64,000 bases of DNA from Anaerolineaceae bacterium (GCA_003569365.1 BGOS01000009.1:6580-70579), one strand, 5' to 3'. Positions 1 to 25,676 are shown, counted from the first letter of the stretch. The notes: generated from the sequence alone by a model not told the origin. Made by a program: numbers and translations.

Positions 1-2383
1 TGACCATCTCCGGCTCGAAGGCGTGCAGCTCGCCGCCGCGCTTGAACTTGTAGTAGCCGGGCGAAGGCATGGCCGGCTCTGTGCCAAATGCCAGCGCGTG
101 CCACGCCAGCGGAATGCGCGCCACATCGGCCAGCGTGCTGCCGCCCAGATGCGCGGGCGTGCCGCTAAAGTGCGTGTCCACGAGGTCCGCATGCAGGCCG
201 ATGCATTCAAAGATTTGTGCGCCGCAATATGCTTCGACTGTGCTGATGCCCATTTTGGACATGACTTTTAGCAGGCCTTTCTCGAGCGCTTTTATGTAGT
301 GCGCCGCTGCAAGCTCGGGCTGCTGCTTCACCAGTGTGGGCACGGCGGCCAAGGCAAGATACGGGCACACAGCACTCGCGCCATAGCCCACCAGCGCAGC
401 CGCATCATGCACGCTGCGCGGCTCGCCGCTGTCCACCACCAAACTTGTGCGGCCGCGCAGGCCGGCGCGAATAAGATGATGATGCACGGCGCCCAGCGCC
501 AGCAGCGCGGGCAGCAGGCTGTGCTGCGCGTCCACGCCGCGGTCGCTAAGAATCAACAACTGGCAGCCGCCGGCCACTGCCGTGTGCGCTGCGCTGCACA
601 GCGCGTCCAGCGCAGCCGGCAGCGCAGCGCTGCCACTGGCCACGGGCCACAGCGTGGAGAGCGTTTGCGCCGGCAAGTGCGGCTGGCTGCACAGCTGCTG
701 CAGCTGCGCATCATCCAGCAGCGGGCTGGGCAGCTGCAGGTGGCGCGTGTGCGCCGGCGTTTCGCACAGCGCATTGGCGCGCGCGCCCAGCCGCACCTGC
801 AAAGACATCACCAGCCCCTCGCGCAGCGGGTCAATTGGCGGATTGGTCACCTCGGCAAAGCGCTGCCGGAAATAATTGAAGAGCGGGCGCGGCTTGGCGC
901 TCATCACGGCGGGCGGCGTGTCGTCGCCCATGGAGCCCACCGGCTCGGCGCCTTCCTCCGCCATGGGGCGCAGGGTGAAGACCACATCATCATGTGTGTA
1001 ACCGAAGGCGAGCAGCTCCGTGGAAAGCGCTGCATGTGTGTTGGCAATGCTGCTGTTAGGGGCGGGCAGCTGCCAGTTGCACAGCCATTGGCCGTAGGGC
1101 TGGCGCGCTGCCAGCTGCGCTTTGATCTCGGCATCGCCCAACAGTTGGCCGCGCTGCGTATCCACGGCCAGCATCTGGCCCGGCCCCAGCTTGCCAAGGC
1201 ACGTCAGGCGCCCGGCATCCAGCGTCACCGCGCCAATTTCGGAGGCTGCATACACCAGGCCGTCGCGCGTGGCAGCGTAGCGCAGCGGGCGCAGGCCGTT
1301 GCGGTCCAGGGTGGCGCCCACTGTGCGCCCGTCACTGAACACAATTGCAGCCGGTCCGTCCCAGGGTTCCGCCAGGTGGGCATGGTAGGCATAGAAGTCG
1401 CGCACGGCGGGCGGCAGGTCGGGCAGCTTTTCCCACGCCATTGGCAGCAGCATGGAGAGCACATGCGGCAGGTCGCGCCCGGTCTGCCACAGCAGCTCGG
1501 CGTAGTTGTCCAGCATGGCAGAGTCGCTGCCGCTGGCATCAATCACCGGCTGCAGCGCAGCCGGCGTGAACCCGCCGCCAGCCTCCAGCTGTGCCGTGCG
1601 TGCCTGCACCCACGCCACATTGCCCTGAATGGTGTTGATCTCGCCGTTATGGCACAGCAGCCGGAAGGGCTGCGCGCGCTCCCAGGTGGGCAGCGTGTTG
1701 GTGCTGTAGCGCTGATGGAAGACAACCGACGAGACGGCGTATTGCGGATCCGCCAAGTCCAGATAGAAGCTGCCTACTTGCGGCGCGTGCAGCAAACCCT
1801 TGTATACAACCGTGCGCCCGGACATTGAAGCCACGTAGGCGGACCAGCCATGGGCGGCAGACTCGCGCTCAAATGCCTTGCGCGCCAGAAACAGGCGCTG
1901 CTCAAATTCCGCGGCTGCCAGATGCGCCGGCCGCACAATCAGCGCCTGGCGGATCAACGGGATGCGCGCCCGCGCCTGCGGGCCAAGCACATCCGGATTG
2001 ATGGGCGGCTTGCGCCACGCTGCCAGCGGCACGCCATGCGCTGCCAGCGCATGGCCAACGGCTGCCGCAGCCGGCTCCAGATGCGCCGGCCGAAAGAAGA
2101 ACATGCCGACCGCCATTCGCTCCGGCGCTGCCTGCTGCCCGGTGAGCTGCGCCAGCGCTGCGGAAAAGAAAGCGCCCGGTATTGGCGTGAGCACGCCGGC
2201 CCCGTCGCCGGTTTTATTGTCTGCGTCCAGCCCGCCGCGGTGCTGCAAGTTGACCAGCCCGGAAAGGCCCAGCTGCAAAATTTCCGCGGAAGCGCGCCCG
2301 TGCTGGTCTGCCACAAAGCCAACGCCACACGCGCCACGCTCAATCGCGTCTGCAACCGGCATTTTGAAGGCGGGAATTTTCAT
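1..2383 (-). CDS. gltB: glutamate synthase large subunit, N-terminal ~794 aa (3' part runs off the left edge)
   Basis: The minus-strand frame is open from ATG 2383 to base 1. It is missing from the ORF track because it is edge-truncated. My translation starts MKIPAFKMPVADAIERGACGVGFVADQHGRASAEIL (Ntn-amidotransferase Cys after a short propeptide). It ends ...PSPGYYKFKRGGELHAFEPEMV at the left edge, and both ends are in the same frame (2383-70 is divisible by 3). The + ORF 299..1828 is its antisense shadow. Confidence 0.9.
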   Translation of the reverse strand, partial: MKIPAFKMPVADAIERGACGVGFVADQHGRASAEILQLGLSGLVNLQHRGGLDADNKTGDGAGVLTPIPGAFFSAALAQLTGQQAAPERMAVGMFFFRPAHLEPAAAAVGHALAAHGVPLAAWRKPPINPDVLGPQARARIPLIRQALIVRPAHLAAAEFEQRLFLARKAFERESAAHGWSAYVASMSGRTVVYKGLLHAPQVGSFYLDLADPQYAVSSVVFHQRYSTNTLPTWERAQPFRLLCHNGEINTIQGNVAWVQARTAQLEAGGGFTPAALQPVIDASGSDSAMLDNYAELLWQTGRDLPHVLSMLLPMAWEKLPDLPPAVRDFYAYHAHLAEPWDGPAAIVFSDGRTVGATLDRNGLRPLRYAATRDGLVYAASEIGAVTLDAGRLTCLGKLGPGQMLAVDTQRGQLLGDAEIKAQLAARQPYGQWLCNWQLPAPNSSIANTHAALSTELLAFGYTHDDVVFTLRPMAEEGAEPVGSMGDDTPPAVMSAKPRPLFNYFRQRFAEVTNPPIDPLREGLVMSLQVRLGARANALCETPAHTRHLQLPSPLLDDAQLQQLCSQPHLPAQTLSTLWPVASGSAALPAALDALCSAAHTAVAGGCQLLILSDRGVDAQHSLLPALLALGAVHHHLIRAGLRGRTSLVVDSGEPRSVHDAAALVGYGASAVCPYLALAAVPTLVKQQPELAAAHYIKALEKGLLKVMSKMGISTVEAYCGAQIFECIGLHADLVDTHFSGTPAHLGGSTLADVARIPLAWHALAFGTEPAMPSPGYYKFKRGGELHAFEPEMV

Positions 2384-2673
2384 GGCGGTGGCTAAGCCCA
2401 CAGAATAGCACGATTCGACTGAATTTTGGGGCATTTGACGGCTCAGTTTTTGCGGGCTACGGCGGCGCCTGCATGGGCCTGCGTGCTGGCCAGCGCGGCT
2501 TGCAAATTAAGTGAGAATTTCGCCAGCCAGCAGCGCCGGGCCTTTAGCCGCGCAAACCTGTTGAAGCCGGAAGATTAAGTGCCGCGGGAAGTACGGCACC
2601 TGCTTTGTTGGCGGCGGGCACGCGGTGCCTTTCCGCAGCGCTGCGCACCACGCGCGGTGGCGCAAATTTATTT

Positions 2674-3843
2674 TTAGCGCCGGGCTGCGTTTTTTCGGCC
2701 AAGCACAAAATAAGTTTGCGTGGGGCCGATGCTCTTGACTTCGATTACTTCGCCGTCTTCCAGGTCAAACTCTGCGCGCAACAAATCTGCCGTACTGGCG
2801 CTGATGCGCACGCGGCCGCCCACACCGGAAGATTCCATGCGGCTGGCGATGTTCACCGTGTCCCCCCACACATCATAAGTAAACTTGCGGATGCCAATCA
2901 CACCGGCCACAATCGGCCCGCTGTTGATGCCCACGCGGATTTCAAAGTTGGTGCCTTGCGCCCGGTTGAGGTCCCGCACAGACTCCAGCATCTCCAGCCC
3001 CACATCCGCCACGGCCTGCGCGTGGTCTGCGCGGGCTTGCGGCACCCCGCCCACCAGCATGAAATTGTCGCCAATCGTCTTGATTTTTTCCAGCCCGCTG
3101 CGTTCCGTTATCAGGTCAAAGGCAGACATCATTTCATTTAGGAAGCTCACCAGGTCCGGCGCACTGGTTGTGCGCGAGAGTTTGGTGAACGCCACCAGAT
3201 CGGCGAACAGCACCGATACGCCATCGTGGGTGTCTGCAATCAGCTCCTCGCCCAGCTTCAGCCGGTCGGAAATAAACTTCGGCAAAATGTTGGCCAGCAG
3301 GCGTTCTGTTTTCTCCTGTTCGGCCAGCACCATTTCATGCTGGCTGCGCAGTTGCTGCATGCGCAGCTTGTCCAAGTCGCGCAGTTTCTTTTTTTCAATG
3401 GAGGTGGTGGCGCGCGCGCGCAGCAGAACGGGGCTGAAGGGCTTGGGCAGATAGTCCTCCGCCCCCAGCTCAATGCATTTGACCGCGTTGGCGATGTCTT
3501 CACCGCCGGAAATTACAATTACCGGCAGCCAGTTAATAGCGGCATCAGCGCGCATGGCGGCCAGCACTTCCATGCCGGTCATCTCGGGCATTTCCACGTC
3601 CAGCAGCATCAGGTCGAAAGTTTCGGCTTTGATGCGTTCGATTGCCGCGCGGCCATCGGCAGCTTCAAAAATATTCTGGAAACCAAGCTGCTTAAGCGAG
3701 CGCGTGATGCCCATGCGCATCATTTTGCTGTCGTCGACCACCAGCACCCGCGCCGCAAAGATCAGCTCCGGGCTGGGTGCCTCGTCCACGGGCGCAGCGG
3801 ATGGCGCTGCCGTGGTTCCAAACAGAAGTGAACGCTCATTCAT
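2674..3843 (-). CDS. response-regulator receiver domain fused to a class III adenylate cyclase (REC-CHD)
   Basis: 389-aa ORF. REC domain: RVLVVDDSKMMRMGITRSLKQLGF...FDLMLLDVEMPEMTGMEVL. A coiled linker follows (KKKLRDLDKLRMQQLRSQHEMVLAEQEKTERLLANILP). Cyclase homology domain: VSVLFADLVAFTKLS, IKTIGDNFMLVGGVP, IRVGINSGPIVAGVIG, YDVWGDTVNIASRMES. Both metal Asp, the adenine-specifying Lys/Asp and the Asn/Arg are all visible in one chain. Confidence 0.9.
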   Translation of the reverse strand: MNERSLLFGTTAAPSAAPVDEAPSPELIFAARVLVVDDSKMMRMGITRSLKQLGFQNIFEAADGRAAIERIKAETFDLMLLDVEMPEMTGMEVLAAMRADAAINWLPVIVISGGEDIANAVKCIELGAEDYLPKPFSPVLLRARATTSIEKKKLRDLDKLRMQQLRSQHEMVLAEQEKTERLLANILPKFISDRLKLGEELIADTHDGVSVLFADLVAFTKLSRTTSAPDLVSFLNEMMSAFDLITERSGLEKIKTIGDNFMLVGGVPQARADHAQAVADVGLEMLESVRDLNRAQGTNFEIRVGINSGPIVAGVIGIRKFTYDVWGDTVNIASRMESSGVGGRVRISASTADLLRAEFDLEDGEVIEVKSIGPTQTYFVLGRKNAARR

Positions 3844-3900
3844 ATGGTGGCCCCCCAGGCTTGTAGCTGCCCGAACGGCAGCTTGTTTGCAGTTTGCGGG

Positions 3901-4962
3901 TTAGCGCGGCACGCCTTCCAGCGCTTTAATAATTGCGCCCGGCATTTGGCCCAGATGCACTATTTGGTCGACCACGCCCAGCTTGGCCGCGGCGCGCGGC
4001 ATGCCATAAACCACGCAGCTGTCCTCATGTTCCGCCAGGGTGCGGCCGCCGCCGCGCTTGATTGATTGCATCCCAACTGCACCGTCGCTGCCCATGCCCG
4101 TGAGCAAAATGCCCAGCGCGTGCGCCCCGGCGGCTTCCGCTCCGGAACGAAACAAAACATCCACCGACGGCCGGCAAAACTGAATGGGCGGCGACTGTGT
4201 GAGGCGCGTAGTATAACCGCCGAGGCGCTTCACGATCATCAAATGAAAGTCTCCGGGTGCAAAGAGGCAAACACCGGCCTGCAGGGGCTCGTTGTCTGCC
4301 GCCTCTCTAACCTCGTAATCGCAGCGTTGATTGATGCGTTCCGCCATCGCCTTTGAAAAATGGGCGGGGATGTGCTGCACAACTGCAATGGGTGGCAGCC
4401 CGGCCGGCAGGCTGGGCAGTAAAAAGCGCAAGGCCTCAACCCCGCCCGTCGAGGCGCCGATTAGAATCAACCGCAAATCCGGGCCTTTGGACGGGCTGGC
4501 CACCAAGCGCAAGCTGCTGTCCGCGAGGCCGGTTTTTACCGGTGCCAGCTGCGGCTGGCGCCGGGAGCGCGCCGCAGCTTTTACATGAAACGCAAGCCGC
4601 CCCGCCAGCGAACCAATGGAATAGCTGCCGTCCGGCTTGGCCAAAATATCGCAGGCGCCGGCTTCCATTGCGTCCAGCGCCATTTGCGAGCCTTGCTGCG
4701 TTAGCGCGCTGACAACCACCACCGGGATGGTTGATTTTTCCGCTTTGAGCTTGCGCAGATATGTGAGCCCGTCCATGCGCGGCATTTCCATGTCCAGCGT
4801 AAGCACATCTGGCCGGAGCTTGGGAATTTTTTCAATCGCAATCAGCGGATCGTTGGCCGTGCCCACCACCTCGATTTCCGGGTCCAGGTGAAGGGTGTCC
4901 GTGATCGCTTTGCGCACCAGCGCCGAGTCGTCGATTACCAATACCTTGATCTTGTCAGCCAT
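3901..4962 (-). CDS. cheB: chemotaxis response regulator protein-glutamate methylesterase
   Basis: 353 aa. N-terminal REC (KVLVIDDSALVRKAI...DVLTLDMEMPRMDG) plus a CheB methylesterase domain (LILIGASTGGVEAL, GILLTGMGSDGAVG, HEDSCVVYGMPRAA). Confidence 0.92.
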   Translation of the reverse strand: MADKIKVLVIDDSALVRKAITDTLHLDPEIEVVGTANDPLIAIEKIPKLRPDVLTLDMEMPRMDGLTYLRKLKAEKSTIPVVVVSALTQQGSQMALDAMEAGACDILAKPDGSYSIGSLAGRLAFHVKAAARSRRQPQLAPVKTGLADSSLRLVASPSKGPDLRLILIGASTGGVEALRFLLPSLPAGLPPIAVVQHIPAHFSKAMAERINQRCDYEVREAADNEPLQAGVCLFAPGDFHLMIVKRLGGYTTRLTQSPPIQFCRPSVDVLFRSGAEAAGAHALGILLTGMGSDGAVGMQSIKRGGGRTLAEHEDSCVVYGMPRAAAKLGVVDQIVHLGQMPGAIIKALEGVPR

Positions 4963-5014
4963 GGCACGCCTCTATGAATAAAGTGAAACAATCAGGGCGC
5001 GATCTCATCAGATT

Positions 5015-5854
5015 TTAATTTGCACGGCGAAAAATTCCGCCCCCGAGATTATCGAAAGGATGTTGAATTCCGTGCAGGCTATCCGAAATGCCGATCACCA
5101 GGTAGCCGCCCGGAATCAATGCATCGTAGAGCCGCTTAATCAGCTGTGCCTGTGATGGCGGATCAAAATAGATCAGCACATTGCGGCAAAAAATTATGTG
5201 CTGGGGCTGCGGTACCGGATAGGCAGCTTGAAAGAGATTGGCCTGGATAAATGTGACATTGGAACTCAAGGCGGCTTTGATCCGGCATTGGCCTTCATAG
5301 GGTCCGCTGCCCTTTTGAAAATAGCGCGCCATCAGGCCGGCATCCGGCAGCTTCACTTTTGCGGCAGCGTAAATTGCTGTGCGCGCGCTAGCCAAAACCC
5401 GCCGGGAAATATCCGTGCCGTAGATGTGCCAGTCGATCCGCCGCTGCCCGCGGTTAAATTCAGAAAGGCTAATGGCCAGCGAAAACGCCTCCTCTCCGGA
5501 GGACGCAGCCGCCGACCAGCAGCGCAAGCCGTTGCGCACCGCGGGCACATGCCGCAGCAAGCCCGGCAGCAGCTGCGCTGCCAGCGCATCAAAATGCGGC
5601 TGCTCGCGGAAGAAGTAAGTGTGGTTGGTGGCGATGAGATCGACCAGCACCTCGATCTCATCGCTGTTTTTGTGCGTGTGCAGGTAGTCGCAGTATTGGT
5701 CGAACGACTTTACCCCGACTGCCTTGGGCCGGTGCGCGAGCCGGCTTGACACCAGCTGCTGCTTGGTGGCCCCCAAATAAATCCGGCTGTTCTTATAAAC
5801 TACCTCGCTGATGTAGTCGTAAGCCGCCGGTGAAATTCCAAAATCAAGCGCCAA
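5015..5854 (-). CDS. cheR: chemotaxis protein methyltransferase
   Basis: 279 aa with a TTG start, 15 nt after the MCP stop. CheR N-terminal helical domain plus SAM-MTase motifs (LRCWSAAASSGEEAFSLAI, IFCRNVLIYFD). Confidence 0.9.
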   Translation of the reverse strand: MALDFGISPAAYDYISEVVYKNSRIYLGATKQQLVSSRLAHRPKAVGVKSFDQYCDYLHTHKNSDEIEVLVDLIATNHTYFFREQPHFDALAAQLLPGLLRHVPAVRNGLRCWSAAASSGEEAFSLAISLSEFNRGQRRIDWHIYGTDISRRVLASARTAIYAAAKVKLPDAGLMARYFQKGSGPYEGQCRIKAALSSNVTFIQANLFQAAYPVPQPQHIIFCRNVLIYFDPPSQAQLIKRLYDALIPGGYLVIGISDSLHGIQHPFDNLGGGIFRRAN

Positions 5855-5869
5855 GGGAACACGGGCGGC

Positions 5870-7438
5870 TTATTGGTCTTTAAAGTGCTTGTCTGCGTCG
5901 CCGGCCGCGAGTGCAAGCGCTTTGCGCGCGGGCTGCTGGTCCTTCAGCTGGCGCGGCGCCTGCCACTCTGCCTGTGGAGCGCTGCCAATGCGCGCGCGGC
6001 GCTTGGCCGGTGCCCCGGCGCCGGTAACACCGCGCAGTTCTTCTGCCAGGTTCATCTGCTCCTTTGCCTGTGCGCTCAGCTCTTCGGCTGCGCCCGCTGT
6101 GGTTTCGGCGTTGCCAGCATTGCGCGTGGAGACCTTGCCCATCTGTCCAATTGCCGCCGCAATTTGTTCGACGCCTTGCGACTGCTCCTTGGCTGCTTGT
6201 GCAATTTCGTTCACCAAGCCATCGGTCTGGTTTACTTTTTCTGCAATTGCCGCAAAGGACTCGCCCAGCTTTACCAGGCTTTGCGACCCGTTGCGGCTGT
6301 TCATGATGGCCGCTTCAATCTTCTCGGCGGTTTCATGCGCGGCCGCGCTGCTGCGCTGCGCCAGCGAGCGCACCTCGTCTGCCACCACGGCAAACCCGGC
6401 GCCCGCCTCGCCCGCGCGCGCTGCCTCGATGGCTGCGTTCAGCGCCAGAATATTTGTCTGGAATGCAATCTCATCAATGCTCTTCACAATTTTGGCCACT
6501 TCGGCGCTGGATTGCGCAATTGACTGCATAGCCGAAGTCATTTCACCCATGGTGACAGCCCCGCTCTGTGCAGCAGAGTGCGCCTCGCTTACCAGCGCTT
6601 TGGCCTTCACAGTGTTATTGGCTGTGCCATGCAGCATGCTGGACATTTGCTCAAGCGAGGAACTCGTTTCTTCGACGGCGGCAGCCGCCTCACTGGCGCC
6701 CTCTGCCAGCTGCTGGCTGGCCTGCGCCACCTGGTCGGCAGCTATGGCTGATTGCTCAGCACCGCTTGACAGGCTGTCGGTGATGCGATCCAGCGGGCCA
6801 AAGGTTAGCCGGGTCAAATACCAGACTGCACTGCCCGCAAGCAGCAGCATGACGCCTGCACCAGCGAGGGACCACAGCAGCGCCAGGCGGTCGACCTGTA
6901 TTGCTTCGGCCTCATTTGCTGCTGCCGTACGGAGCGCAACAGCTGCAACACGGTCGATAGCATCACGCTGCTCTGCATAAGCTTTACTTAACTCAGCATA
7001 ATATGTCGTTGCCTTGTCTGTGTCGCCTGCACGAATGGCCGGCAAAAAGTGCTGATTTAGATCATTGAAGAAGTCTTCAGCTGACGAGTGCACGTCACCC
7101 ACCATGAGTGCCTTGGCTTCCTCTTCGATGTGGGTGCTGGCTTCCCATACTGCATGCCGGTCTTCGTAATCGCTCTTGAGCTTCTCAAGTTTAGCTGTGG
7201 CAGCATCAATTTCGTCGGGCGCAATCATTAGCCGTGTCGCCGTTAGGTAGCTTTCAACAACATATTCTGGCGGCGGCAGAATGTCTGCAAGTAAATCTTT
7301 ATCTGCAACTATCCGCGTATAGAGGCCGCCGCCGATTTTGGCGTCCGCCAGCAAGAAATCGGTGAGGAGTGCCGTGATCACAACGGTGACCACCATGAGC
7401 GCCAGAATAATGTACCGTAAAGTCTTAGTGTTCAGCAT
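5870..7438 (-). CDS. methyl-accepting chemotaxis protein
   Basis: 522 aa. N-terminal TM, a ~170-aa helical extracytoplasmic region, a second TM, then the MCP signalling domain with the hairpin-tip consensus [43 protein letters not shown]. Confidence 0.9.
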
Positions 7439-7513
7439 TTCTTATCTCCTGTGTTTGCTAAAATGTTGCCCGTGTTCTGGGCGGGGTAAGCGGGCATCAG
7501 CTGCGGGCGCATG

Positions 7514-8023
7514 CTAGGCAGCCTCGCGGAAAACCTGCTGCAGGTCAATGTCGCCGTCCATTGTGAGCAGCTTGTCCAGGTCCAGCAATGTTTTGACTGT
7601 GCCCTTGGTTTTGGTCATGCCGGTGATGTAGCGCGTGTCCACCAGGCTGCCAAAGTCTGGAGTGGGCTCAATTTCCGCCTCTGTGTACTGCGAGACTTCC
7701 TCAACCATATCCACAATCATTCCCATCAGGTTGGCACTGCCGTCGCCGTTATCCAGCTGCACCACAATAATGCAGACGCGATCCCGGTCCGCAAACTCTG
7801 GCAGCCGGAAGCGCGCGCGCAGGTCCAGCACGGGCACAATTTTGCCGCGCAGGTTGATGACCCCCTGAATGTAAACCGGCATGCGCGGCACCGGTGTGAT
7901 CGGGCATAGGCGCATAATCTCGCGCACCTTCAGGATCGGCAGGCTGTAGTGCTCCGCGCCAAGCATGAAGGTCAGATATTTTCCGGGCTTGGGCCGGTTG
8001 TCCGTCTGGATTTGATTTGTCAT
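7514..8023 (-). CDS. cheW: chemotaxis coupling protein CheW
   Basis: 169 aa. CheW domain: YLTFMLGAEHYSLPILKVREI...VINLRGKIVPVLDLR...IIVVQL. Confidence 0.9.
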   Translation of the reverse strand: MTNQIQTDNRPKPGKYLTFMLGAEHYSLPILKVREIMRLCPITPVPRMPVYIQGVINLRGKIVPVLDLRARFRLPEFADRDRVCIIVVQLDNGDGSANLMGMIVDMVEEVSQYTEAEIEPTPDFGSLVDTRYITGMTKTKGTVKTLLDLDKLLTMDGDIDLQQVFREAA

Positions 8024-8147
8024 GCAAACACCTGTTAAATGGCGGGCGGGTTAAATGGGAACCCGGCGCGTGGCTGCGGTTTAAAGTTGAGCCGGATGTT
8101 GGTGGCAGGCCATTGGCGGCGCCGCCCGGCGGGCAAAGCGGCGCCTG

Positions 8148-10292
8148 TCATGCGGTTGGCACCGGCTGGTTTTTGTGGTGGGCGCGTGGCGCGCCAAGGT
8201 TTTCAATGTCAAGAATTAAAGCCACCAGTCCGTCTCCCAGAATGGCTGCGCCGGACATGCTGGCCTGGCCTTTGAAGGCGGACCCCAAAGACTTGATAAC
8301 CACCTCTTGTTTTCCGATCAGCCGGTCCACCAGCAAGCCGCGCGGCTGGGATTCAGACTGGGTGACCACAATAATTCCGTCGCAGGGGTCTTTGGCCGTG
8401 GACTCAATGCCAAGCTGGTCGCCCAGCCGCACCAGCGGAATCAGTTTGCCGCGCACGCTCACCACCTCGCCGCGGCCCTGGGAGGTGGCAACCACACCGG
8501 GCAGCGGGCGGAAGGATTCGCGAATGGAAAGGCTGGGGATGATGAAGCGTTCGGTGCCAATGCCAATCAGCATGCCATCAATGATGGCCATGGTGAGCGG
8601 CAGCCGGATAGTCACAACCGAGCCCTGGCCCAGAGTGGATTGCACCTCAACCCGGCCGCGCAAACGGGAAATGCTGGCGCGGACTACATCCATGCCCACA
8701 CCGCGGCCGGAGATGTCTGTAATATTGTCCACGGTCGAGAAGCCGGGCAGGAAGATGAGGTCGAAGATTTCTTTTTCTGTGGGTGTGGCGTCGGCATCAA
8801 TCAGCCCGCGTTGAATGGCCTTGGCCAGAATGCGGTTCTGGTCCAGGCCTTTGCCGTCGTCGCTGATGGTGATCACAATCCCGCCGCCGGAGTGCATGGC
8901 ATGCAGGCGCACAGTGCCAAGCGCCGGCTTGCCCTGCGCCACGCGGACTTCGGGCATTTCGATGCCGTGGTCTACAGAGTTGCGCACCATGTGCACCAGC
9001 GGGTCGCCCAACTCCTCCACAATGTTGCGGTCAATTTCAGTTTCTTCGCCAGACAGCAGCAGCTGCACCTGCTTGCCCTGGGTCGCGGACAGGTCGCGCA
9101 CCAGCCGGTTCATTTTTTGAAAGGCACCGCGGATCTCCACCATGCGCAAAGACATGGCATTGCGCTGCAGGTCGGTGGTGATGCCATGCAGCTGGCGCAT
9201 GAAGCGCGCCAGATTGCGGTCGTTCAAAGTTTGCACCTGCGGGTGCTGCAGCACCATGGACTGGGCAATCACAAGCTCGCCCACCAGATCCACCAGCACA
9301 TCCAGCTTTTGCGTGTCCAGTTTTACAAAGCTGGCAAGGCGCTCGTTGCTGCTGCCGGGGCTGGGTTTGGTGGCGGTGGTTTTTGAGGTAACTGGCGCCG
9401 ACTTGGCTGGCGGCGGCGCAACGGCGGCGACCCGCGGCGCAACGGCAGCGACCGGCGGCGCAACGGCAGCAACCGGCGGCGCAACGGCAGCAACCGGCGG
9501 CGCAACGGCAGCGACCGGCGGCGGATTGGCTGCAGGCGCGGGGCTTTCACCCGCGAGGCGCGCTTTCACGCGCGCAATCAAGTCGCTGGTGGGCACCGTG
9601 ATGGCTTCGCCTTTCAAAGCGCCGCCCAGGCGCTTGCCAATCTCACTCAGGAATTGCTGCAGCGCATCGCGCCCGGCCAGGATCAACTCTGTGATGTAGG
9701 TGTCAATCGTCAGGTCGCCGCGGCGCGCGGCATCCAGCAAGGATTCAAGCTCATGCGCCAAATTCTTGATTGGCTCGAGGCCGAGGAAGCCCGCACCGCC
9801 CTTGAAGGTGTGAAAAGCACGAAAGACCACGTTCAGCGTGTCTGCGCTGGCGGGATTTTCTTCCAGCACCAAAACACCCTGCTCAATGTCCTGCAGCAAG
9901 TCTTTGCCTTCATTACAGAACTCGTTGAGGAGCTCGGTATCGTCACCCAGCTCCAGAGTCATGGTTGGCTCTGGCGCATCCGGTTGGGTGTCCGGCGCAG
10001 CCAGCCAGTCCTGGCAGGCTTTGTCCAGGCGTTCGTACCATTTTTGCAGCACCTGTCCCGCATCAGCTGCAAGCACGCCGCCCGCAGCAGCCACAGCCTC
10101 GGCAAATTGGGCGGCAGTGGCAATCTCTGTGGCAACTGCGGGCGGCAGCGGAGAGCCAACAAGTTTTTCCAACTCCGCCAAAACTTCGGCAATTGCGGCA
10201 AGGCTGGCTGCGCTGCCCGTTTCCACAAACGCCAGCTCAGTCGCAATCTGCTGCAGTAAATCGCCGGTCTCTTCGGTGTGTATCTTCTTCAT
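8148..10292 (-). CDS. cheA: chemotaxis histidine kinase CheA (P1-linker-P3-P4-P5; no recognisable P2)
   Basis: 714 aa. A ~115-aa helical N-terminal extension, then Hpt (FRAFHTFKGGAGFLGL). An Ala/Pro/Val repeat linker follows. Then dimerisation domain (KLDVLVDLVGELVI), HATPase (VHMVRNSVDHGIE, DDGKGLD, SGRGVGMDVV) and a C-terminal CheW-like domain. Confidence 0.92.
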   Translation of the reverse strand: MKKIHTEETGDLLQQIATELAFVETGSAASLAAIAEVLAELEKLVGSPLPPAVATEIATAAQFAEAVAAAGGVLAADAGQVLQKWYERLDKACQDWLAAPDTQPDAPEPTMTLELGDDTELLNEFCNEGKDLLQDIEQGVLVLEENPASADTLNVVFRAFHTFKGGAGFLGLEPIKNLAHELESLLDAARRGDLTIDTYITELILAGRDALQQFLSEIGKRLGGALKGEAITVPTSDLIARVKARLAGESPAPAANPPPVAAVAPPVAAVAPPVAAVAPPVAAVAPRVAAVAPPPAKSAPVTSKTTATKPSPGSSNERLASFVKLDTQKLDVLVDLVGELVIAQSMVLQHPQVQTLNDRNLARFMRQLHGITTDLQRNAMSLRMVEIRGAFQKMNRLVRDLSATQGKQVQLLLSGEETEIDRNIVEELGDPLVHMVRNSVDHGIEMPEVRVAQGKPALGTVRLHAMHSGGGIVITISDDGKGLDQNRILAKAIQRGLIDADATPTEKEIFDLIFLPGFSTVDNITDISGRGVGMDVVRASISRLRGRVEVQSTLGQGSVVTIRLPLTMAIIDGMLIGIGTERFIIPSLSIRESFRPLPGVVATSQGRGEVVSVRGKLIPLVRLGDQLGIESTAKDPCDGIIVVTQSESQPRGLLVDRLIGKQEVVIKSLGSAFKGQASMSGAAILGDGLVALILDIENLGAPRAHHKNQPVPTA
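9411..9522. repeat. 21-bp tandem repeat, about 5 copies, inside cheA
   Basis: The string gcgcaacgg recurs at 9416, 9437, 9458, 9479 and 9500, an exact 21-nt period. On the coding strand this gives (APPVAAV)x5 in the CheA P1-P3 linker. Confidence 0.9.
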
Positions 10293-10614
10293 GGGATAGC
10301 GGCTTATTGTAGGCGCGGGCCATTATACGGCATTATGCCAGCGCTGCGCCAGCGCCCTGCACAAAAACGGCGCTAAAGACCGCATCCAATTTAGATATCC
10401 GGCGGCGCACAAAATTGAATGCCTGCCTGCGGCGGGCACGCTGGCGTGATTTTTCGCCCTTGACGAACCAACTACTCCCGCTGAAACTTTGAACTGCGCT
10501 GCCAGCCAGTTTGGTGACAACCATTGCGGCTGCAGCTTAGCCCCGCCCCGGAAAGCCACCCGCGCAACTGCTGCTTGCCATTGCCCGCGCGCATTGTATT
10601 GTAATGAAGGTTGT

Positions 10615-11791
10615 GTGAAAGCAACTCATGTCCCGCCAGTGTCCGCCGCGCGGGGGATTAGCCACGCCTACTTCTTTTTGATCGGGCTGGTGGGCGTCGG
10701 GCTGTTGCCGGCGCTCATCAGAAGCTTTGAGCTCAACTTTAGTTTGTCGCACACGCGCATGGGGGCCATTCTCAGCGCCAGCTCACTGGTGATGGCCAGC
10801 GGCTCGGTGCTCTCGGGTATTTGGTATGACCGCAGCGGCCCGCGCTGGGTGCTGGGCGCAGCGCTGGCAGTCACGGCTGCGGGTGCGCTCATGGTTTGGG
10901 GCGCTGCCAGCGCGGCAGCATTCGCAGCGGCTTTGATGCTCTTTCATTTCGGGCATGGGTTGGGGGTGCCGGTTAATTCTGTTAATCAGCGAGCTGTACG
11001 GCAGCGAGCGCGCGCGTGGGTTGATTTTGATGCATGGCTTTCAAGCACTGGGGCGGCTGGGTGCGCCGGCGTTGGTGGCGGCTTGCTTTGCACTCAGTGC
11101 CGGCTGGCGCAGTGCGTTTCTGTTGTCTGCGGTTTTGTTTGGCGGCTGGGCAGCGCTGTTCATTTTCAGCCTGCAAAATTTTTCGGTGCATGCGCAGCGC
11201 AGCGCTGCGGGCGGCGGCGTGCGCGCTGTGCTGCATTATCTGGCTGATGTGCGCCTGCAGACGGGGCTGCTGGGGTTTGTGGCCGCCAGCGGCGTGGAGG
11301 GTGTTTTGATTACCTGGCTGCCCACATACCTGCAAACCGAAGGCGCTGCTTCCCAGGCGGGCGCGTTGTTGGCGCTTTCGGCAATGCTGATTGGCTACAC
11401 CATCATCCGGCTGCTGCTGGGCAGCGGCCGCTTGACAGCAACCGCGCGCTTTATTGGCGCAAGTGTGGCCGCATACCTGGCCGGCTTGGCGCTGGTGCTT
11501 AGCCTGCCCGCGCAGTTGTATGTGCTGTACCCGGCGTGTGTGTTGTTGGGGGCGGCGGTCGGCTCCTTCTGGCCGGCGCTGGCCACGCGCTTGTATGACT
11601 GCTTCCCCGACGCGCAAGGCATTATTGGCGGCTTGATTGTGAGTGCCTCGGTGCTCGGCGGCGCCACCAACGTCACGCTGGTGGGCTGGATCGGAGATGC
11701 ATTCTCGTTGCAGCAGGCGCTGCTGATCACGCCGGTTTTTGCGGTTGCTTATTGGTGGCTGTACCGCAGCGTGGCGCTGCGCATGGCCTGA
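10615..11791 (+). pseudogene. MFS transporter with an apparent single-base frameshift (pseudogene or assembly error)
   Basis: Two overlapping + ORFs in frames 1 and 2 (10489..11247 and 10955..11791) join into one MFS-like protein: ...ALMLFHFGHGLGVPVNS / LISELYGSERARGLILMHGFQALGRLGAP.... The frame switch lies between ~10962 (a G5 run) and ~10982 (gttaat..gttaat). The likely start is GTG 10615, preceded by GAAGG. Confidence 0.6.
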
Positions 11792-11848: not shown

Positions 11849-12646
11849 TTAAAGCGCGAGCGCTTGCAGCAGCGCCGGCAGCTGCGCGGGCTGCGACCAC
11901 ACCACCGAATCCAGCTGCACCGCAGCGGCTCCGGCTGCCAGCATTGCCTGCGCCTGCTCCGCGCTGTGCACACCGCCGCCGGCCAACAGTGGCAAATCTG
12001 CAATTGCGCGCACGGCCTGCAGGTTGTGCAGCGCGCCCGGGAATACACCGTGGCCGTATAGCCGGCCGCTCACCGGGCCGGGCAGCGTGCCGCGCGGCGG
12101 CGCACTCACGCTCAACCCGTGCGCACCCGCGCGCGCTGCAATTAGCGCGCACTCCGCTGCGCGTTCAAAGGGCAGCGCTGCCAATACGGGCAGCAAGCCC
12201 ATGCAAGCAGTGCGCACCAGCTCGCTGATGGTGTGCGCATGCTCGTCTGCCCGGAAGCCCAGCTCCACCGCTGCCACATTTTCCAGCTGCTCCAGCAGCG
12301 CCAGGCATTGGGTTACTTCCGCGCCGCTATCCAGCGCCAGATGCACAATTACGGGGCAGGGCATGCGCGCCCATTTGGCGGCGCAGGTTTTCACGGCGGC
12401 GCGCAGGCCGGGGTTGGGCAGGCCGGTGTGCAGCAGCACGCCGCCGGGAAAGGCCAGTGCTGTGCGCGCGGCTGCCGGCTGGCGCGCCGCGTATGTTAGC
12501 GGGTTGGTAATGAAGGCGCCCAGCTGCGCAAAATCCAGTACGCCGGCGTACTCATCCGCAAAGCCCCAGCAGCCGGAGGCAGCCACGGCGCGGCTGCGCA
12601 GCGCCAGGCCGGTCTTGTGGTTGGGTGCCAGCTCCAGCAGTGCCAT
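11849..12646 (-). CDS. dihydroorotate dehydrogenase (class 1B catalytic subunit)-like protein lacking the canonical active-site loop
   Basis: Real start is ATG 12646 (MALLELAPNHKTGLALRSRAVAASGCWGF...). The upstream part of ORF 11849..13057 is R/C/W-rich junk. PyrD-like motifs: TGLPNPGL, and the C-terminal FMN-binding LLAGGGVHSAEQAQAMLAAGAAAVQLDS. It has VELGFRADEHAHT where class 1/2 DHODs carry N-I-S-(C/S)-P-N. Confidence 0.75.
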   Translation of the reverse strand: MALLELAPNHKTGLALRSRAVAASGCWGFADEYAGVLDFAQLGAFITNPLTYAARQPAAARTALAFPGGVLLHTGLPNPGLRAAVKTCAAKWARMPCPVIVHLALDSGAEVTQCLALLEQLENVAAVELGFRADEHAHTISELVRTACMGLLPVLAALPFERAAECALIAARAGAHGLSVSAPPRGTLPGPVSGRLYGHGVFPGALHNLQAVRAIADLPLLAGGGVHSAEQAQAMLAAGAAAVQLDSVVWSQPAQLPALLQALAL

Positions 12647-12671
12647 AACAATTTTGGTGCGGGCTGCGCGC

Positions 12672-13370
12672 TCAGGGCTGCGCCTGCAGCTCAGCCAGCG
12701 GCCACAGCAACCCGGCGGTGCACGCCAGCTTCCAGCCGGCGCGCGTGCGGATGGTGCATGCCTGGCAGGCGCCCACACCGCACGGCAGGCAAAGGTGCAG
12801 CAGCACATGCGCGTTGGGTATTTGCGCCAGCAGCGCTGCCAGCTCCGGCGCGGGCTGCGGTTCCACATGCGCAATGGCCAATGCCGGCCAGGCGCTGTGC
12901 TCGCGCACCAGTGCGGGCAGGTGCCCGATGCGCACCTCAATGCGCGCATCAAGGGATTCAACCGGGTACGGGCGCGCCAGCAGCAGCAAGGCAGCCCCGC
13001 CGGCAGCCAGCGTGGCGGCTGCAAACGGCAGCAAGCGTGCCGGCTGCGTGTTGGCAATCAGCAATATATTTCCCTTGGCAGCGGGCAGCGCTGCGGGCCG
13101 GCCCACCGGCCCCAGCAGCTCCAGGCTGCTGCCGGGTTGCAGCCAATCGCGCCCGGCTTCGCCCGGTGCCAGCTCAATGGCCCACAGCTCGTGATCAAAC
13201 GCCACCGGAAACAACACGCTGCGCAGATACGGTTCGGCGCCCGTGCCCAGGCGCGCCAGCATGCACTGGCCGGGCTGCGGCCGCACGCTGCTGCGCAGCC
13301 AGGCGCGCACGCGGCCGTGGCCCAGCAGCTCCAGCCGCACGCACTGCGCTGCAATTGCCTGCACTGGCAT
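12672..13370 (-). CDS. PyrK-like (DHOD electron-transfer subunit-like) iron-sulfur protein, divergent
   Basis: Real start is ATG 13370 (MPVQAIAAQCVRLELLGHG...). It ends 25 nt before the PyrD-like start. The C-terminal 2Fe-2S-type Cys cluster is present (HLCLPCGVGACQACTIRTRAGWKLAC). The usual RxxS FAD motif and the GGGxG NAD motif are not recognisable (LRSVLFPVA; ILLIANTQPARLLP). Confidence 0.7.
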   Translation of the reverse strand: MPVQAIAAQCVRLELLGHGRVRAWLRSSVRPQPGQCMLARLGTGAEPYLRSVLFPVAFDHELWAIELAPGEAGRDWLQPGSSLELLGPVGRPAALPAAKGNILLIANTQPARLLPFAAATLAAGGAALLLLARPYPVESLDARIEVRIGHLPALVREHSAWPALAIAHVEPQPAPELAALLAQIPNAHVLLHLCLPCGVGACQACTIRTRAGWKLACTAGLLWPLAELQAQP

Positions 13371-13384
13371 GCGCGCAATATAGC

Positions 13385-17944: not shown

Positions 17945-18013
17945 TGCGCCTGCCGTGTGCTGCAACCGCAGCTGGCTGAATGCTGGCTGCATGAACGCAC
18001 GCATAATACTGAC

Positions 18014-19237: not shown

Positions 19238-19263
19238 GCAGCCGGCCGGGAGCAGGCTGCAAG

Positions 19264-21717: not shown

Positions 21718-21899
21718 CAATAACTTGCCGAAAAATTTTGCGCGCGCAGTTTGCAACGGCGCGGCGCATTTACGGCACGCGCGATTTTACTGCAGGCGCC
21801 CGGCCGCTGCAGTGCGCCTGTGGCAAAGTGTTTGTGTTTCGCGGCGGCGGGTAGCGCGTAGATCTTGGCTATACTCCGTGCCACAGAGGCAATAATTTT

Positions 21900-22367
21900 A
21901 TGCGCAACCACAGCCGCCCGAAAAGACTGGATGAAATGGACGACCTGCGCGACATGGGCCGCTTTCCAGTTGTGGTTTATATGGGCGCGACAGGCAACAT
22001 CCTGTTTGCCATTTGCCTCACCTTTCTTGTGCATGCGCGCTATGCCCAAGCCTGGGTGATGCTGGCGTGGGCGGCGGGCGTGGCAGCCGGCAATGTGCTG
22101 CCCGTGGTGTTTTTGCGCTGGCGCATGCGGCCGGATGCGCATTACCCAATTATTGAAGAGATGGGTTTCTTTGGCGACCAGCACAAGTTTGCAACATGGG
22201 TATATGCAGTGGCCGTGGCCAATATGTTTTTCTGGATTGTGCTGGCGTGGACCGCATTTACTGTGAGCCGCGCACCGGTGATGTTGGCTGCGGTGCTGGC
22301 GTTAGCATTTGTGTGCACCTTCTTTCCGGCCTGGGTGCGCATCTTTGCGCGTCCTGCAGCGCACTAA
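21900..22367 (+). CDS. small integral membrane protein, unknown function
   Basis: 155 aa with about 4 hydrophobic segments and a normal composition. No family recognised. Confidence 0.55.
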   Translation: MRNHSRPKRLDEMDDLRDMGRFPVVVYMGATGNILFAICLTFLVHARYAQAWVMLAWAAGVAAGNVLPVVFLRWRMRPDAHYPIIEEMGFFGDQHKFATWVYAVAVANMFFWIVLAWTAFTVSRAPVMLAAVLALAFVCTFFPAWVRIFARPAAH

Positions 22368-22415
22368 ACCAATCCGCTAAAAAACAACTGTGGCGCGGTG
22401 GCGCGCACGCGCACA

Positions 22416-25007: not shown

Positions 25008-25054
25008 ATTGTTCACTCCAACCAATCATCCGCAGCCGGGTGCCAGTGCTTGAA

Positions 25055-25672: not shown

Positions 25673-25676
25673 CGCC

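What the first reader, a model, noticed from the sequence alone, without database searches (positions are those of the whole stretch)
2674..10292. Chemosensory (Che-like) operon whose only dedicated output in the cluster is a receiver-adenylate cyclase fusion
Six co-directional, closely spaced genes run cheA, cheW, mcp, cheR, cheB, then a REC domain fused to a complete class III cyclase domain.

- The cyclase has both metal Asp, Lys/Asp adenine specificity, and Asn/Arg.
- No single-domain cheY, cheZ/C/X or flagellar/pilus gene lies in or next to the cluster.
- CheA lacks a recognisable P2 domain and has an extra N-terminal helical region.

Together this looks like an alternative-cellular-function Che pathway that turns MCP signalling, with CheR/CheB adaptation, into cAMP synthesis. 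Che pathways with REC-GGDEF output (Wsp-type) are well established. A direct REC-CHD output is at least uncommon, and I know of no characterised example.
Basis: partly seen in the sequence, partly recalled or inferred. Interest (0 to 1): 0.7.

Follow-up and report, generated by a model that had tools for sequence, protein, structure and literature searches.

The report
Chemoreceptor pathway wired to cAMP synthesis
A six-gene chemotaxis-type signalling cluster in a freshwater Chloroflexota genome ends in a response-regulator/adenylate-cyclase fusion, and the same linkage in bacteria of several phyla suggests a widespread, untested pathway that turns chemoreceptor signals into cAMP.

Summary
Six minus-strand genes (2674-10292) encode CheA, CheW, a two-TM MCP, CheR, CheB and a REC-class III cyclase with every phospho-acceptor and catalytic residue intact.

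No other REC, cheY/Z/X/C, flagellar, pilus, CRP or phosphodiesterase gene lies in the 64 kb.

The cyclase linkage is conserved:
- All 10 gene-context look-ups that could show a che cluster did. Nine started from cyclase homologues of 58-97% identity, one from a CheA homologue.
- In a tree of REC-cyclases, che-linked ones fall in one clade (17 of 19 leaves, against 2 of 52 elsewhere).
- Relatives add a phosphodiesterase and two cNMP-binding genes, or cheX-cheY.
- Two relatives fuse a CheA-type P1 domain (41% identical to this CheA's P1) directly to the REC-cyclase.

Best reading: CheA~P phosphorylates D82 of the cyclase, so receptor signalling with methylation adaptation is converted into cAMP.

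- The family is widespread, not rare.
- One such cluster was tabulated in 2012.
- The MCP is heptad class 36H, which points to the F7 lineage.
- Lack of P2 is ordinary.

An orphan CheY elsewhere in the genome cannot be excluded. No characterised example was found. It is a new variant of a known kind.

The parts
8148..10292 (-). cheA (714 aa): N-terminal four-helix domain, P1/Hpt, disordered linker without P2, then P3-P4-P5.
   Evidence: Pfam finds Hpt, H-kinase_dim, HATPase_c and CheW. The best PDB match is E. coli CheA at 392 bits. Motifs found: H161 in FHTFKGG, N-box HMVRN 434, G1 DDGKG 478, G2 GRGVGMD 529. AF2 model.
9993..10292 (-). CheA N-terminal domain (residues about 1-100), specific to this CheA family, with a conserved ELAF..G motif.
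   Evidence: It is conserved in 7 of 7 CheAs from cyclase-linked clusters and nearly invariant in 45 homologues: L13, Q14, A17, T18, E19, A21, F22. AF2 predicts four helices (2-21, 29-45, 51-69, 78-98) at pLDDT 63-88. It has no Pfam hit and no similarity to the protein's own P1.
9555..9938 (-). CheA P1 (Hpt) domain carrying the phospho-histidine H161.
   Evidence: It is 41% identical (E 1e-28) to the Hpt domain fused to a REC-cyclase in locus L001.
9411..9523 (-). 21-bp tandem repeat, 5.4 copies, encoding PPVAAVA repeats in the P1-P3 linker.
   Evidence: Tandem Repeats Finder. CheAs in the 90% identity cluster have lengths 699, 706, 713 and 720, which differ by 7 aa.
7514..8023 (-). cheW (169 aa), coupling protein.
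   Evidence: Pfam CheW at E 5.9e-36.
5870..7438 (-). mcp (522 aa): TM1 about 7-30, periplasmic helical domain of about 155 aa, TM2 about 185-208, no HAMP, 36H signalling domain with hairpin tip EAARAGE at 338-344.
   Evidence: Pfam MCPsignal. It aligns without gaps to E. coli Tsr 260-507. Ten family members share the same length with no gaps. There is a weak 4HB_MCP_1 hit at E 0.07.
5015..5854 (-). cheR (279 aa), methyltransferase without TPR.
   Evidence: Pfam CheR_N plus CheR.
3901..4962 (-). cheB (353 aa), REC plus methylesterase.
   Evidence: Pfam. It passes the NCBIfam CheB subfamily cut-off, 383 bits against 293. REC residues D11, D12 and D57 and the catalytic motifs GASTGG 169, VVQH 194 and GMGSDG 289 are present.
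2674..3843 (-). REC-adenylate cyclase fusion (389 aa), the proposed pathway output.
   Evidence: Pfam. Alignment A1 invariants. AF2 model at pLDDT 82.9. PDB matches.
3412..3747 (-). Receiver domain (residues 33-144) with D37, D38, D82 (acceptor), S112, Y131 and K134.
3235..3411 (-). Signalling helix plus cyclase-transducer element (residues 145-203; LLANILPK at 182-189).
   Evidence: In the AF2 model, REC helix alpha5 continues as one helix over 138-186, followed by a helix at 189-196. The segment aligns with the pre-catalytic helices of tmAC and mycobacterial Cya. Homologues have HNOBA hits.
2701..3234 (-). Class III cyclase homology domain (residues 204-381) with D215, D259, K255, D324, N331 and R335.

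Best explanation
This is a complete chemosensory pathway whose dedicated response regulator is an adenylate cyclase.

Proposed mechanism:
1. A two-TM, HAMP-less, 36H chemoreceptor with a small periplasmic helical sensor forms signalling complexes with CheW and CheA.
2. Ligand occupancy sets the rate of CheA autophosphorylation at H161.
3. The phosphoryl group passes from P1 to D82 of the REC-cyclase and to D57 of CheB.
4. Phosphorylation of the REC domain changes the pairing or register of the long helix that runs from REC alpha5 into the cyclase-transducer element.
5. This switches the homodimeric class IIIa catalytic domain, most likely on, and changes cAMP synthesis.
6. CheR and phospho-CheB reset receptor methylation, so the cAMP output should adapt and report changes in stimulus more than absolute level.

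Shown here: gene content, intact catalytic and phospho-acceptor residues, conserved linkage, and the fusions.

Inferred: the phosphotransfer itself, the sign of regulation, cAMP as the product, the adapting output, and the downstream targets. The targets are unknown in this genome. In relatives they are probably the co-encoded single-domain cNMP-binding proteins, with a co-encoded phosphodiesterase terminating the signal.

The host is a freshwater Chloroflexota (Anaerolineae-type) bacterium. It probably acquired the cassette by horizontal transfer.
For: Domains and residues.

Conserved linkage:
- A homologue 97% identical, on contig L081, has the same six genes.
- A 68% homologue, L082-85, has the same six genes with different flanking genes.
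- Homologues of 58-61% (L086, L088, L089, L170-173, L175) all lie directly after cheA-cheW-mcp-cheR-cheB.
- The reverse test also holds. A 56% CheA homologue on a 4.49 Mb contig (L176) is followed by cheW-mcp-cheR-cheB-REC-cyclase, a 275-aa gene without a Pfam hit, and two cNMP_binding genes.
- Six exact contig-length coincidences link the top-120 cyclase hits to the top-120 CheA hits.

Phylogeny: 17 of 19 leaves of one REC-cyclase clade have che neighbours, against 2 of 52 outside it. Fisher p is 2.6e-12, or 1.1e-10 after collapsing near-identical leaves.

A cAMP module travels with the cluster in relatives:
- A PDEase_I-like gene and two cNMP_binding genes follow the cyclase.
- L175 carries a REC-CHD-PDE fusion.

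P1-cyclase fusions: L001 and L174 encode Hpt-REC-CHD proteins. The L001 Hpt domain is 41% identical (E 1e-28) to this CheA's P1.

Cyclase type:
- The domain is 46-48% identical to the mycobacterial Cya soluble domain, including the pre-catalytic helix.
- The K/D substrate pair is invariant.

No competing regulator is present in the window.
Against: - Nothing biochemical is shown. Phosphotransfer, the sign of regulation and the product are all inferred.
- Only 64 kb of the genome is visible. An orphan cheY, a second che system or flagellar genes may lie elsewhere.
- If the host is the CL500-11 lineage, which is my guess from the names of cluster members, published MAGs carry flagellar genes.
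- Several relatives keep cheX-cheY between cheB and the cyclase. In those, the cyclase is one of two outputs.
- The MCP and CheA resemble the E. coli-type (F7, 36H) proteins. By sequence, the system belongs to a lineage that includes motility systems.
- No cAMP receptor or phosphodiesterase gene lies in the window.
- Most REC-cyclases outside the clade are not next to che genes.
Confidence: 0.75

Rival explanations
1. The cluster is mainly a flagellar chemotaxis system of the F7/36H lineage. Its motor-directed CheY is encoded elsewhere in the genome, and the REC-cyclase is a side branch or a phosphate sink.
For: - The MCP is 36H and CheA is closest to E. coli CheA, and the literature ties 36H to F7 systems.
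- Relatives carry cheX-cheY in the same operon.
- Freshwater CL500-11 Chloroflexi are reported to carry flagellar genes, if that is the host.
Against: - There is no cheY or motility gene in 64 kb.
- The window lineage and the 68% relative lack cheX-cheY yet keep the cyclase.
- The betaproteobacterial-type variants have a phosphodiesterase and cNMP-binding genes in place of cheY.
- A sink would not need six invariant catalytic residues.
- This rival partly overlaps the main explanation, because both outputs could coexist.
Confidence: 0.2
2. The REC-cyclase is phosphorylated by an unrelated histidine kinase, and its position beside cheB is an accident of gene order.
For: Most REC-cyclases outside the clade lie away from che genes. 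Their kinases were not looked at here.
Against: - Adjacency is kept across phyla with changing flanking genes.
- The clade-level association has p of about 1e-10.
- P1-REC-cyclase fusions exist.
- No other kinase gene lies in the window.
Confidence: 0.03
3. The cyclase domain is inactive, or it makes a nucleotide other than cAMP, such as cGMP.
For: Only experiment settles substrate choice in class III cyclases. Pfam does not separate AC from GC.
Against: - Both metal Asp, the transition-state Asn and Arg, and the Lys/Asp adenine pair are invariant in 43 homologues.
- The closest solved relatives are adenylate cyclases.
Confidence: 0.05

Closest known systems
Wsp system of Pseudomonas aeruginosa (WspA-F with WspR, a REC-GGDEF regulator)
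   Same: Both are chemosensory clusters with an MCP, CheW, CheA, CheR and CheB. In both, the dedicated response regulator is a REC domain joined by a helical stalk to a second-messenger cyclase (WspR: PMC3663191; the rest is my own knowledge). The logic is the same: receptor array, then phospho-REC, then nucleotide messenger.
   Different: The output domain here is a class III adenylate cyclase and not GGDEF. CheA has no C-terminal REC. There is one CheW and not two. CheR has no TPR. The MCP is 36H and lacks HAMP. The messenger is cAMP and not c-di-GMP.
Pil-Chp system of P. aeruginosa, which controls the adenylate cyclase CyaB
   Same: A Che-like pathway that raises cAMP (titles and abstracts; the details are my own knowledge).
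   Different: In Pil-Chp the link is indirect, running through single-domain regulators to a separate membrane cyclase, and the system is tied to type IV pili. Here the REC and cyclase are one polypeptide, and no pilus gene is nearby.
Ancestral F7 systems (P. aeruginosa Che2, V. cholerae cluster III) with 36H Aer2 receptors
   Same: Both have a 36H receptor signalling domain. The best NCBIfam hit of the MCP is Vibrio Aer2. The function of ancestral F7 systems is described as unclear and not motor control.
   Different: Those systems use a soluble PAS-HAMP Aer2 receptor, a cheY and cheD. This one has a two-TM receptor without HAMP, no cheY, and a REC-cyclase. Class membership was not tested with MiST models.
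The che cluster of delta proteobacterium NaphS2 with a 'REC - CHD mononucleotidyl cyclase' regulator (PMC3447774, Table S2)
   Same: It is a che gene cluster whose response regulator is REC-CHD. It is the only earlier record I found.
   Different: That cluster was found through a CheR-TPR protein, and here CheR has no TPR. It is a table entry only, with no analysis or experiment.
Class IIIa adenylate cyclases: mycobacterial Cya/Rv1625c and mammalian membrane ACs
   Same: The catalytic domain and the pre-catalytic helix match. Identity to 5o5k/5o5l is 46-48%, with TM-scores of 0.84-0.89 over the target. All catalytic residues are present.
   Different: Those enzymes are driven by membrane domains or G proteins. 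Here the input is a receiver domain. No REC-CHD structure is in the PDB.
Two-component-regulated cyclases: Dictyostelium ACR and cyanobacterial CyaC
   Same: Receiver domains sit in the same polypeptide as a class III cyclase domain (ACR: PMC3009899; CyaC: my own knowledge).
   Different: Those proteins carry their own histidine kinase domain and have no link to chemoreceptors, CheA or methylation adaptation.

Membership tests
Chemosensory (Che) pathway core | CheA with P1 (Hpt), P3, P4 and P5 domains and a phosphorylatable His | tested here: met
   Pfam finds Hpt, H-kinase_dim, HATPase_c and CheW. H161 lies in FHTFKGG, and the N, G1 and G2 boxes are present.
Chemosensory (Che) pathway core | CheW and an MCP with a signalling hairpin | tested here: met
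   Pfam CheW at E 6e-36 and MCPsignal at E 1e-40. The tip motif EAARAGE is at 338-344.
Chemosensory (Che) pathway core | Adaptation enzymes CheR and CheB, with methylation sites on the MCP | tested here: met
   CheR and CheB have their domains and CheB has its catalytic motifs. One strict consensus site, AAVEETSSS at 253-261, was found. Methylation itself was not tested.
ACF class of Wuichet and Zhulin (a sequence class) | CheA, CheW, CheB and CheR assigned to the ACF class by the class-specific (MiST) profiles | not testable with these tools
   No MiST class models are available. The 36H receptor indirectly points to F7 and not ACF.
F7 chemosensory class | Receptor of heptad class 36H | tested here: met
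   MCP residues 213-460 align without gaps to E. coli Tsr 260-507. Ten family members have identical length over this stretch. The 36H-F7 association comes from PMC7184735.
F7 chemosensory class | Class assignment of the CheA/CheB/CheR core by phylogeny | not tested
   The only pointers are best hits to E. coli-type CheA in NCBIfam and the PDB. These do not discriminate: E. coli P3-P5 scores 326 bits and T. maritima 307 bits.
Wsp-type system | REC-GGDEF output regulator | tested here: not met
   The output domain is Guanylate_cyc (PF00211). There is no GGDEF hit.
Wsp-type system | CheA-REC hybrid kinase, two CheW paralogues and CheR-TPR | tested here: not met
   CheA ends after P5, there is one cheW, and CheR is 279 aa without TPR.
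Class III nucleotidyl cyclase, adenylate-specific | Two metal Asp, transition-state Asn and Arg, and a Lys/Asp substrate pair, all in one chain (active as a homodimer) | tested here: met
   D215, D259, N331, R335, K255 and D324 are present and invariant in 43 sequences.
Class III nucleotidyl cyclase, adenylate-specific | cAMP formation by the enzyme | not testable with these tools
   This needs an enzyme assay.
Class IIIa/b cyclases with a cyclase-transducer element | A conserved helical segment directly before the catalytic domain | tested here: met
   Residues about 166-203 align with the pre-catalytic helices of tmAC and Cya. AF2 predicts helices at 138-186 and 189-196. Homologues have HNOBA hits. 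The name and definition of the element come from my own knowledge.
Phosphorylatable receiver domain | Acidic pocket, acceptor Asp, and conserved Ser/Thr and Lys | tested here: met
   D37, D38, D82, S112 and K134 are invariant in A1, and Y131 occupies the switch position.
Pil-Chp/CyaB type cAMP control | Type IV pilus genes, PilG/PilH regulators and a separate membrane cyclase | tested here: not met
   None of these is in the window.

The most novel reading that the evidence does not exclude
The window holds one member of a distinct, widespread functional class of chemosensory system.

- It is a 36H, F7-related receptor array.
- Its CheA carries a family-specific N-terminal four-helix domain.
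- The CheA feeds a REC-adenylate cyclase directly.
- With CheR/CheB adaptation, and in many relatives a co-encoded phosphodiesterase and cNMP-binding effectors, it would produce adapting cAMP pulses in response to extracellular ligands.

This would be a bacterial counterpart of receptor-driven, self-terminating cAMP signalling. It would also suggest a possible function for non-motor systems of the F7 lineage.
Probability: 0.55. Interest if true: 0.75.

Novelty: new variant of a known kind. Interest (0 to 1): 0.62.

Why it matters
Chemosensory pathways with non-motility outputs are known mainly through c-di-GMP (Wsp), transcription and development.

A direct, adapting link from a chemoreceptor array to cAMP has not been characterised, as far as ten literature searches could show. 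If it is real, bacteria in several phyla would read extracellular chemistry into cAMP with the gain and adaptation of a chemotaxis array.

The relatives found here make the idea testable:
- Operons that carry the cyclase, a phosphodiesterase and small cNMP-binding proteins give a complete candidate module.
- The P1-REC-cyclase fusions name the phosphotransfer pair that should be assayed.

The finding also raises a candidate function for non-motor systems of the 36H/F7 lineage, whose ancestral role is described in the literature as unclear.

For the host, an abundant uncultured freshwater Chloroflexota lineage, it points to an unexplored sensing route.

Tried and rejected
- Rfam scan of the window: no hits.
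- Promoter and terminator scan of 2300-11000: counts are no higher than in shuffled sequence, so nothing can be said about operon boundaries.
- CheA N-terminal domain:
  - It has no Pfam family.
  - It has no BLAST similarity to the protein's own P1, so a recent P1 duplication is rejected.
  - phmmer against 1.84 billion representatives gave only two weak hits.
  - hhalign of the N-domain profile against the N-terminus of the L001 fusion was weak (probability 6%, E 0.006). Homology there is left open.
They served as the negative background and not as a census.
- Polynucleobacter nymphae (L004) looked like a culturable model. It has only cheB-cheR-REC-cyclase after the nuo operon, with no cheA, cheW or mcp within 10 kb.
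- Papers by Wuichet and Zhulin (2010) and Denef et al. (2016) could not be fetched.
- The idea that gltB downstream belongs to the system is rejected, because the downstream gene differs in every relative.
- The host's identity as CL500-11 could not be verified, because the window has no rRNA gene.

Full report
**What is in the sequence.** The interval 2674-10292 holds six co-directional ORFs on the minus strand. In order of transcription they are:
- cheA, 8148-10292, 714 aa
- cheW, 7514-8023
- an mcp, 5870-7438, 522 aa
- cheR, 5015-5854
- cheB, 3901-4962
- a 389-aa REC-cyclase, 2674-3843

Pfam assigns every expected domain with strong scores. NCBIfam places CheB above its subfamily cut-off. 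Intergenic gaps are 15-124 nt.

All of the following residues are present:
- CheA: the phospho-histidine H161 in FHTFKGG, and the ATP-binding boxes.
- CheB: the REC acidic residues, and the motifs around the expected catalytic Ser, His and Asp.
- Cyclase receiver: D37, D38, D82, S112 and K134.
- Cyclase catalytic domain: metal D215 and D259, adenine pair K255 and D324, and N331 and R335.

The cyclase residues are invariant in an alignment of 43 homologues of 56-97% identity.

**Surroundings.**
- Downstream, 239 nt away on the same strand, lies gltB, which runs off the window.
- Upstream lies a divergent MFS transporter gene.
- Pfam scans of the other called genes of the 64-kb window and tblastn with CheY, CheX, phosphodiesterase and cNMP-binding queries find only two receiver domains, those of CheB and the cyclase.
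- There is no cheY/Z/X/C, flagellar, pilus, CRP-like or phosphodiesterase gene in the window.
- The che genes have 58.9% G+C, against 63.5% for the other genes of the window (Mann-Whitney p = 0.0016). The difference in GC3 is not significant.

**Host.** Members of the 90% identity clusters of several window proteins are named Chloroflexota, Anaerolineaceae or Anaerolineae MAGs, some of them from lake metagenomes. I suspect the freshwater CL500-11 lineage. The window has no rRNA gene, so this stays a guess. If it is right, published MAGs of that lineage carry flagellar genes. That matters for the main rival explanation.

**Anatomy of the individual proteins.**

*The MCP.*
- It has two TM segments (about 7-30 and 185-208) around a helical periplasmic domain of about 155 residues. 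That domain hits 4HB_MCP_1 only weakly here and clearly in relatives.
- Residues 213-460 align without a single gap to E. coli Tsr 260-507. The signalling domain therefore has the same length as in E. coli Tsr, which I take to be heptad class 36H (my own knowledge).
- TM2 runs almost directly into that domain, so there is no HAMP.
- Ten receptors from related clusters have exactly the same length and the same HAMP-less junction.
- The literature ties 36H receptors to F7 systems and calls the function of ancestral F7 systems unclear. 'ACF' thus fits this system as a description of function, but probably not as a sequence class. I could not run the class profiles.

*CheA.*
- It has no P2. Residues 252-326 are Pro/Ala/Val-rich, are predicted disordered, and contain a 21-bp tandem repeat.
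- This is unremarkable, because P2 was found in fewer than half of 13,673 CheAs.
- The N-terminal extension is real. AF2 predicts four helices over residues 2-98.
- The segment is conserved, with an ELAF..G motif, in all seven CheAs taken from cyclase-linked clusters and in 45 homologues.
- It has no Pfam family and no similarity to P1.

*The REC-cyclase.*
- AF2 models it at pLDDT 82.9. It shows a receiver whose last helix continues as one long helix (138-186), then a short helix (189-196), then the catalytic domain.
- The catalytic domain and the preceding helix are closest to mycobacterial Cya/Rv1625c (46-48% identity) and mammalian membrane cyclases, that is class IIIa.
- No REC-cyclase structure exists in the PDB.

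Eleven of the twelve gene-context look-ups bear on it. The twelfth, starting from the fusion protein P0106 (locus L174, below), found no che genes nearby.

- *97% homologue:* it sits on an 8-kb contig with the same six genes.
- *68% homologue:* it has the same six genes but different neighbours, with ruvB downstream and an extra divergent mcp upstream.
- *Homologues of 58-61% identity:* these come in two elaborated forms.
  - One form is cheA-(cheW-CZB)-cheW-mcp-cheR-cheB-cheX-cheY-cyclase.
  - The other is (hemerythrin)-cheA-cheW-mcp-cheR-cheB-cyclase-PDEase_I-like-cNMP_binding-cNMP_binding.
  - In L175 the cyclase and the phosphodiesterase are fused into one 676-aa protein.
- *Reverse direction:* a 56% CheA homologue on a 4.49-Mb contig is followed by cheW, mcp, cheR, cheB, the REC-cyclase, a 275-aa gene without a Pfam hit, and two cNMP-binding genes.
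- *Background set:* 169 loci came from the genome and metagenome scans and the first look-ups. Among them, most REC-cyclases of 50% identity or less have no che neighbour.
- *Tree:* in an NJ tree of 71 full-length REC-cyclases, the che-linked ones fall into one clade. In that clade 17 of 19 leaves have che genes alongside. Elsewhere the figure is 2 of 52, and those two are a cyanobacterial pair. Fisher p is 2.6e-12, or 1.1e-10 after collapsing near-identical leaves.
- *A second group inside that clade:* these cyclases are 48-53% identical to the window protein and come from Ferrovum, Polynucleobacter and others. Their gene order differs (mcp-cheA-cheW-cheB-cheR-cyclase), and their Che proteins are only about 30-38% identical to those here. 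The cyclase is therefore associated with more than one kind of Che core.

**Rosetta-stone fusions.** Two Verrucomicrobiota-type loci encode a single protein with an N-terminal region, an Hpt domain, REC and the cyclase domain (L001; L174/P0106; Pfam). The Hpt part of L001 is 41% identical (E 1e-28) to P1 of the window CheA, including the segments on either side of the helical bundle. A CheA-type P1 fused to this REC-cyclase is the strongest available sequence argument that P1 is the phospho-donor for the cyclase receiver.

**Mechanism proposed.**
1. Ligand binding at the periplasmic four-helix domain modulates CheA in a receptor-CheW-CheA complex.
2. P1~P (at H161) donates to D82 of the cyclase and to D57 of CheB.
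3. Phospho-REC changes the pairing or register of the long helix and the cyclase-transducer element in a homodimer, and so changes cAMP synthesis.
4. CheR and CheB~P reset receptor methylation, so the cAMP signal should adapt.
5. No CheZ, CheX or CheC is present here, so signal decay would depend on the intrinsic lifetime of the phospho-aspartate and on CheB competing for phosphoryl groups.

Steps 1 and 4 follow from established knowledge of E. coli-type arrays. Steps 2 and 3, the sign of regulation and the product are inferences. Downstream effectors are unknown in this genome. In relatives the co-encoded small cNMP-binding proteins and the phosphodiesterase are the obvious candidates.

**Rivals.**
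- *Dual output.* The serious rival is that the system also, or mainly, drives a motor through an orphan CheY encoded elsewhere. The 36H/E. coli-like core, the cheX-cheY pair in some relatives and a possibly flagellated host all speak for it. Against it are the loss of cheX-cheY with retention of the cyclase in this lineage, and the phosphodiesterase and cNMP-binding genes that stand in place of cheY in other relatives. The two readings are not exclusive.
- *Accidental adjacency* is made unlikely by the comparative data.
- *A dead or non-adenylate cyclase* is made unlikely by the residue data.

**Comparison with what is known.** In its logic the system works like Wsp, where a receptor array signals through phospho-REC to a messenger cyclase. 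It fails the features that define Wsp: it has no GGDEF, no hybrid CheA, no second CheW and no CheR-TPR. It differs from Pil-Chp/CyaB, where cAMP control is indirect and tied to pili.

The only earlier record I found is a line in Table S2 of a 2012 survey of CheR-TPR clusters. It lists 'REC - CHD Mononucleotidyl cyclase' for delta proteobacterium NaphS2.

Ten full-text searches found no characterised Che-to-REC-cyclase pathway. The library lacks most subscription journals, so 'not found' is not proof of absence.

**Verdict.** The system is better described as one member of a widespread, conserved and experimentally untouched family than as a rarity. I rate it a new variant of a known kind. Interest is moderate to high.

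Noticed in passing
L001:about 1900-3911; L174:2382-4247: Single proteins that fuse an N-terminal region, a CheA-type Hpt (P1) domain, REC and a class III cyclase domain. The L001 Hpt is 41% identical to the window CheA's P1. L174 has no che genes beside it, with a topoisomerase gene upstream. The kinase core that would charge this P1 is not visible.
   Followed up: partly
L175:8106-10136: A REC-cyclase fused to a PDEase_I-like C-terminal domain (676 aa). It lies at the end of cheA-cheW-mcp-cheR-cheB and is followed by two cNMP_binding genes. Synthesis and breakdown of the messenger sit in one polypeptide.
   Followed up: partly
window 9411-9523 (minus-strand cheA): A 21-bp tandem repeat of 5.4 copies encodes PPVAAVA units in the CheA P1-P3 linker. 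Near-identical CheAs from other samples are 699, 706, 713 and 720 aa long, in steps of 7 aa. This suggests that repeat copy number varies in natural populations.
   Followed up: partly
window 5870-7438, and MCPs of L081, L082, L086, L088, L170-172, L175, L176: All ten receptors of this cluster family are 36H. They join TM2 almost directly to the signalling domain with no HAMP domain.
   Followed up: yes
L170:2940-3464; L172:3027-3509; L086:4055-4909; L171:3898-4698: Relatives place a hemerythrin gene just upstream of cheA, or carry a CheW-CZB (zinc-binding) fusion inside the cluster. These hint at oxygen, iron or zinc inputs. Neither is present in the window.
   Followed up: no
L004:7965-11095 (Polynucleobacter nymphae): A cultured freshwater betaproteobacterium carries cheB-cheR-REC-cyclase directly after the nuo operon, a NUDIX gene and a DUF1178 gene. 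No cheA, cheW or mcp lies within 10 kb.
   Followed up: partly
L171:470-1426: A cNMP_binding-GAF protein, next to a T2SSE-type ATPase gene, lies immediately upstream of cheA in one cyclase-linked cluster.
   Followed up: no
window 24000-28308: Three genes in a row: a Caroten_synth family gene, a family-2 glycosyltransferase and a flavin amine-oxidase (CrtI-like) gene. This looks like a carotenoid-modification cluster.
   Followed up: no
window 34451-39043: A run of minus-strand pyrimidine-biosynthesis genes: dihydroorotate dehydrogenase, OMP decarboxylase, aspartate carbamoyltransferase and an amidohydrolase (dihydroorotase-like). My calls for 34451-35605 and 35527-36948 overlap by about 80 nt, so start codons need checking.
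   Followed up: no
window 11849-14467: Long ORFs overlap on both strands in a stretch of 70% G+C. The plus-strand ORF 12617-14467 carries HhH-GPD plus NUDIX_4 (MutY-like), so my composition-based call of 13058-14407 on the minus strand is probably spurious.
   Followed up: partly
window 22001-24000 and 32001-34000: Two stretches have markedly lower G+C (52% and 54%) than the window average of about 63%. The second holds a DUF4910/DUF2172 gene (32956-34077).
   Followed up: no
window 47100-49610 and 58593-60254: Two large proteins with FecR domains in unusual company: LysM x2-FecR-Calx-beta, and FecR-fasciclin.
   Followed up: no
window 16910-21756: An amidohydrolase, a family III CoA-transferase and a DAO-GCV_T fusion (like dimethylglycine or sarcosine dehydrogenase). 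This fits a lifestyle based on nitrogen-rich organic matter and methylated amines.
   Followed up: no
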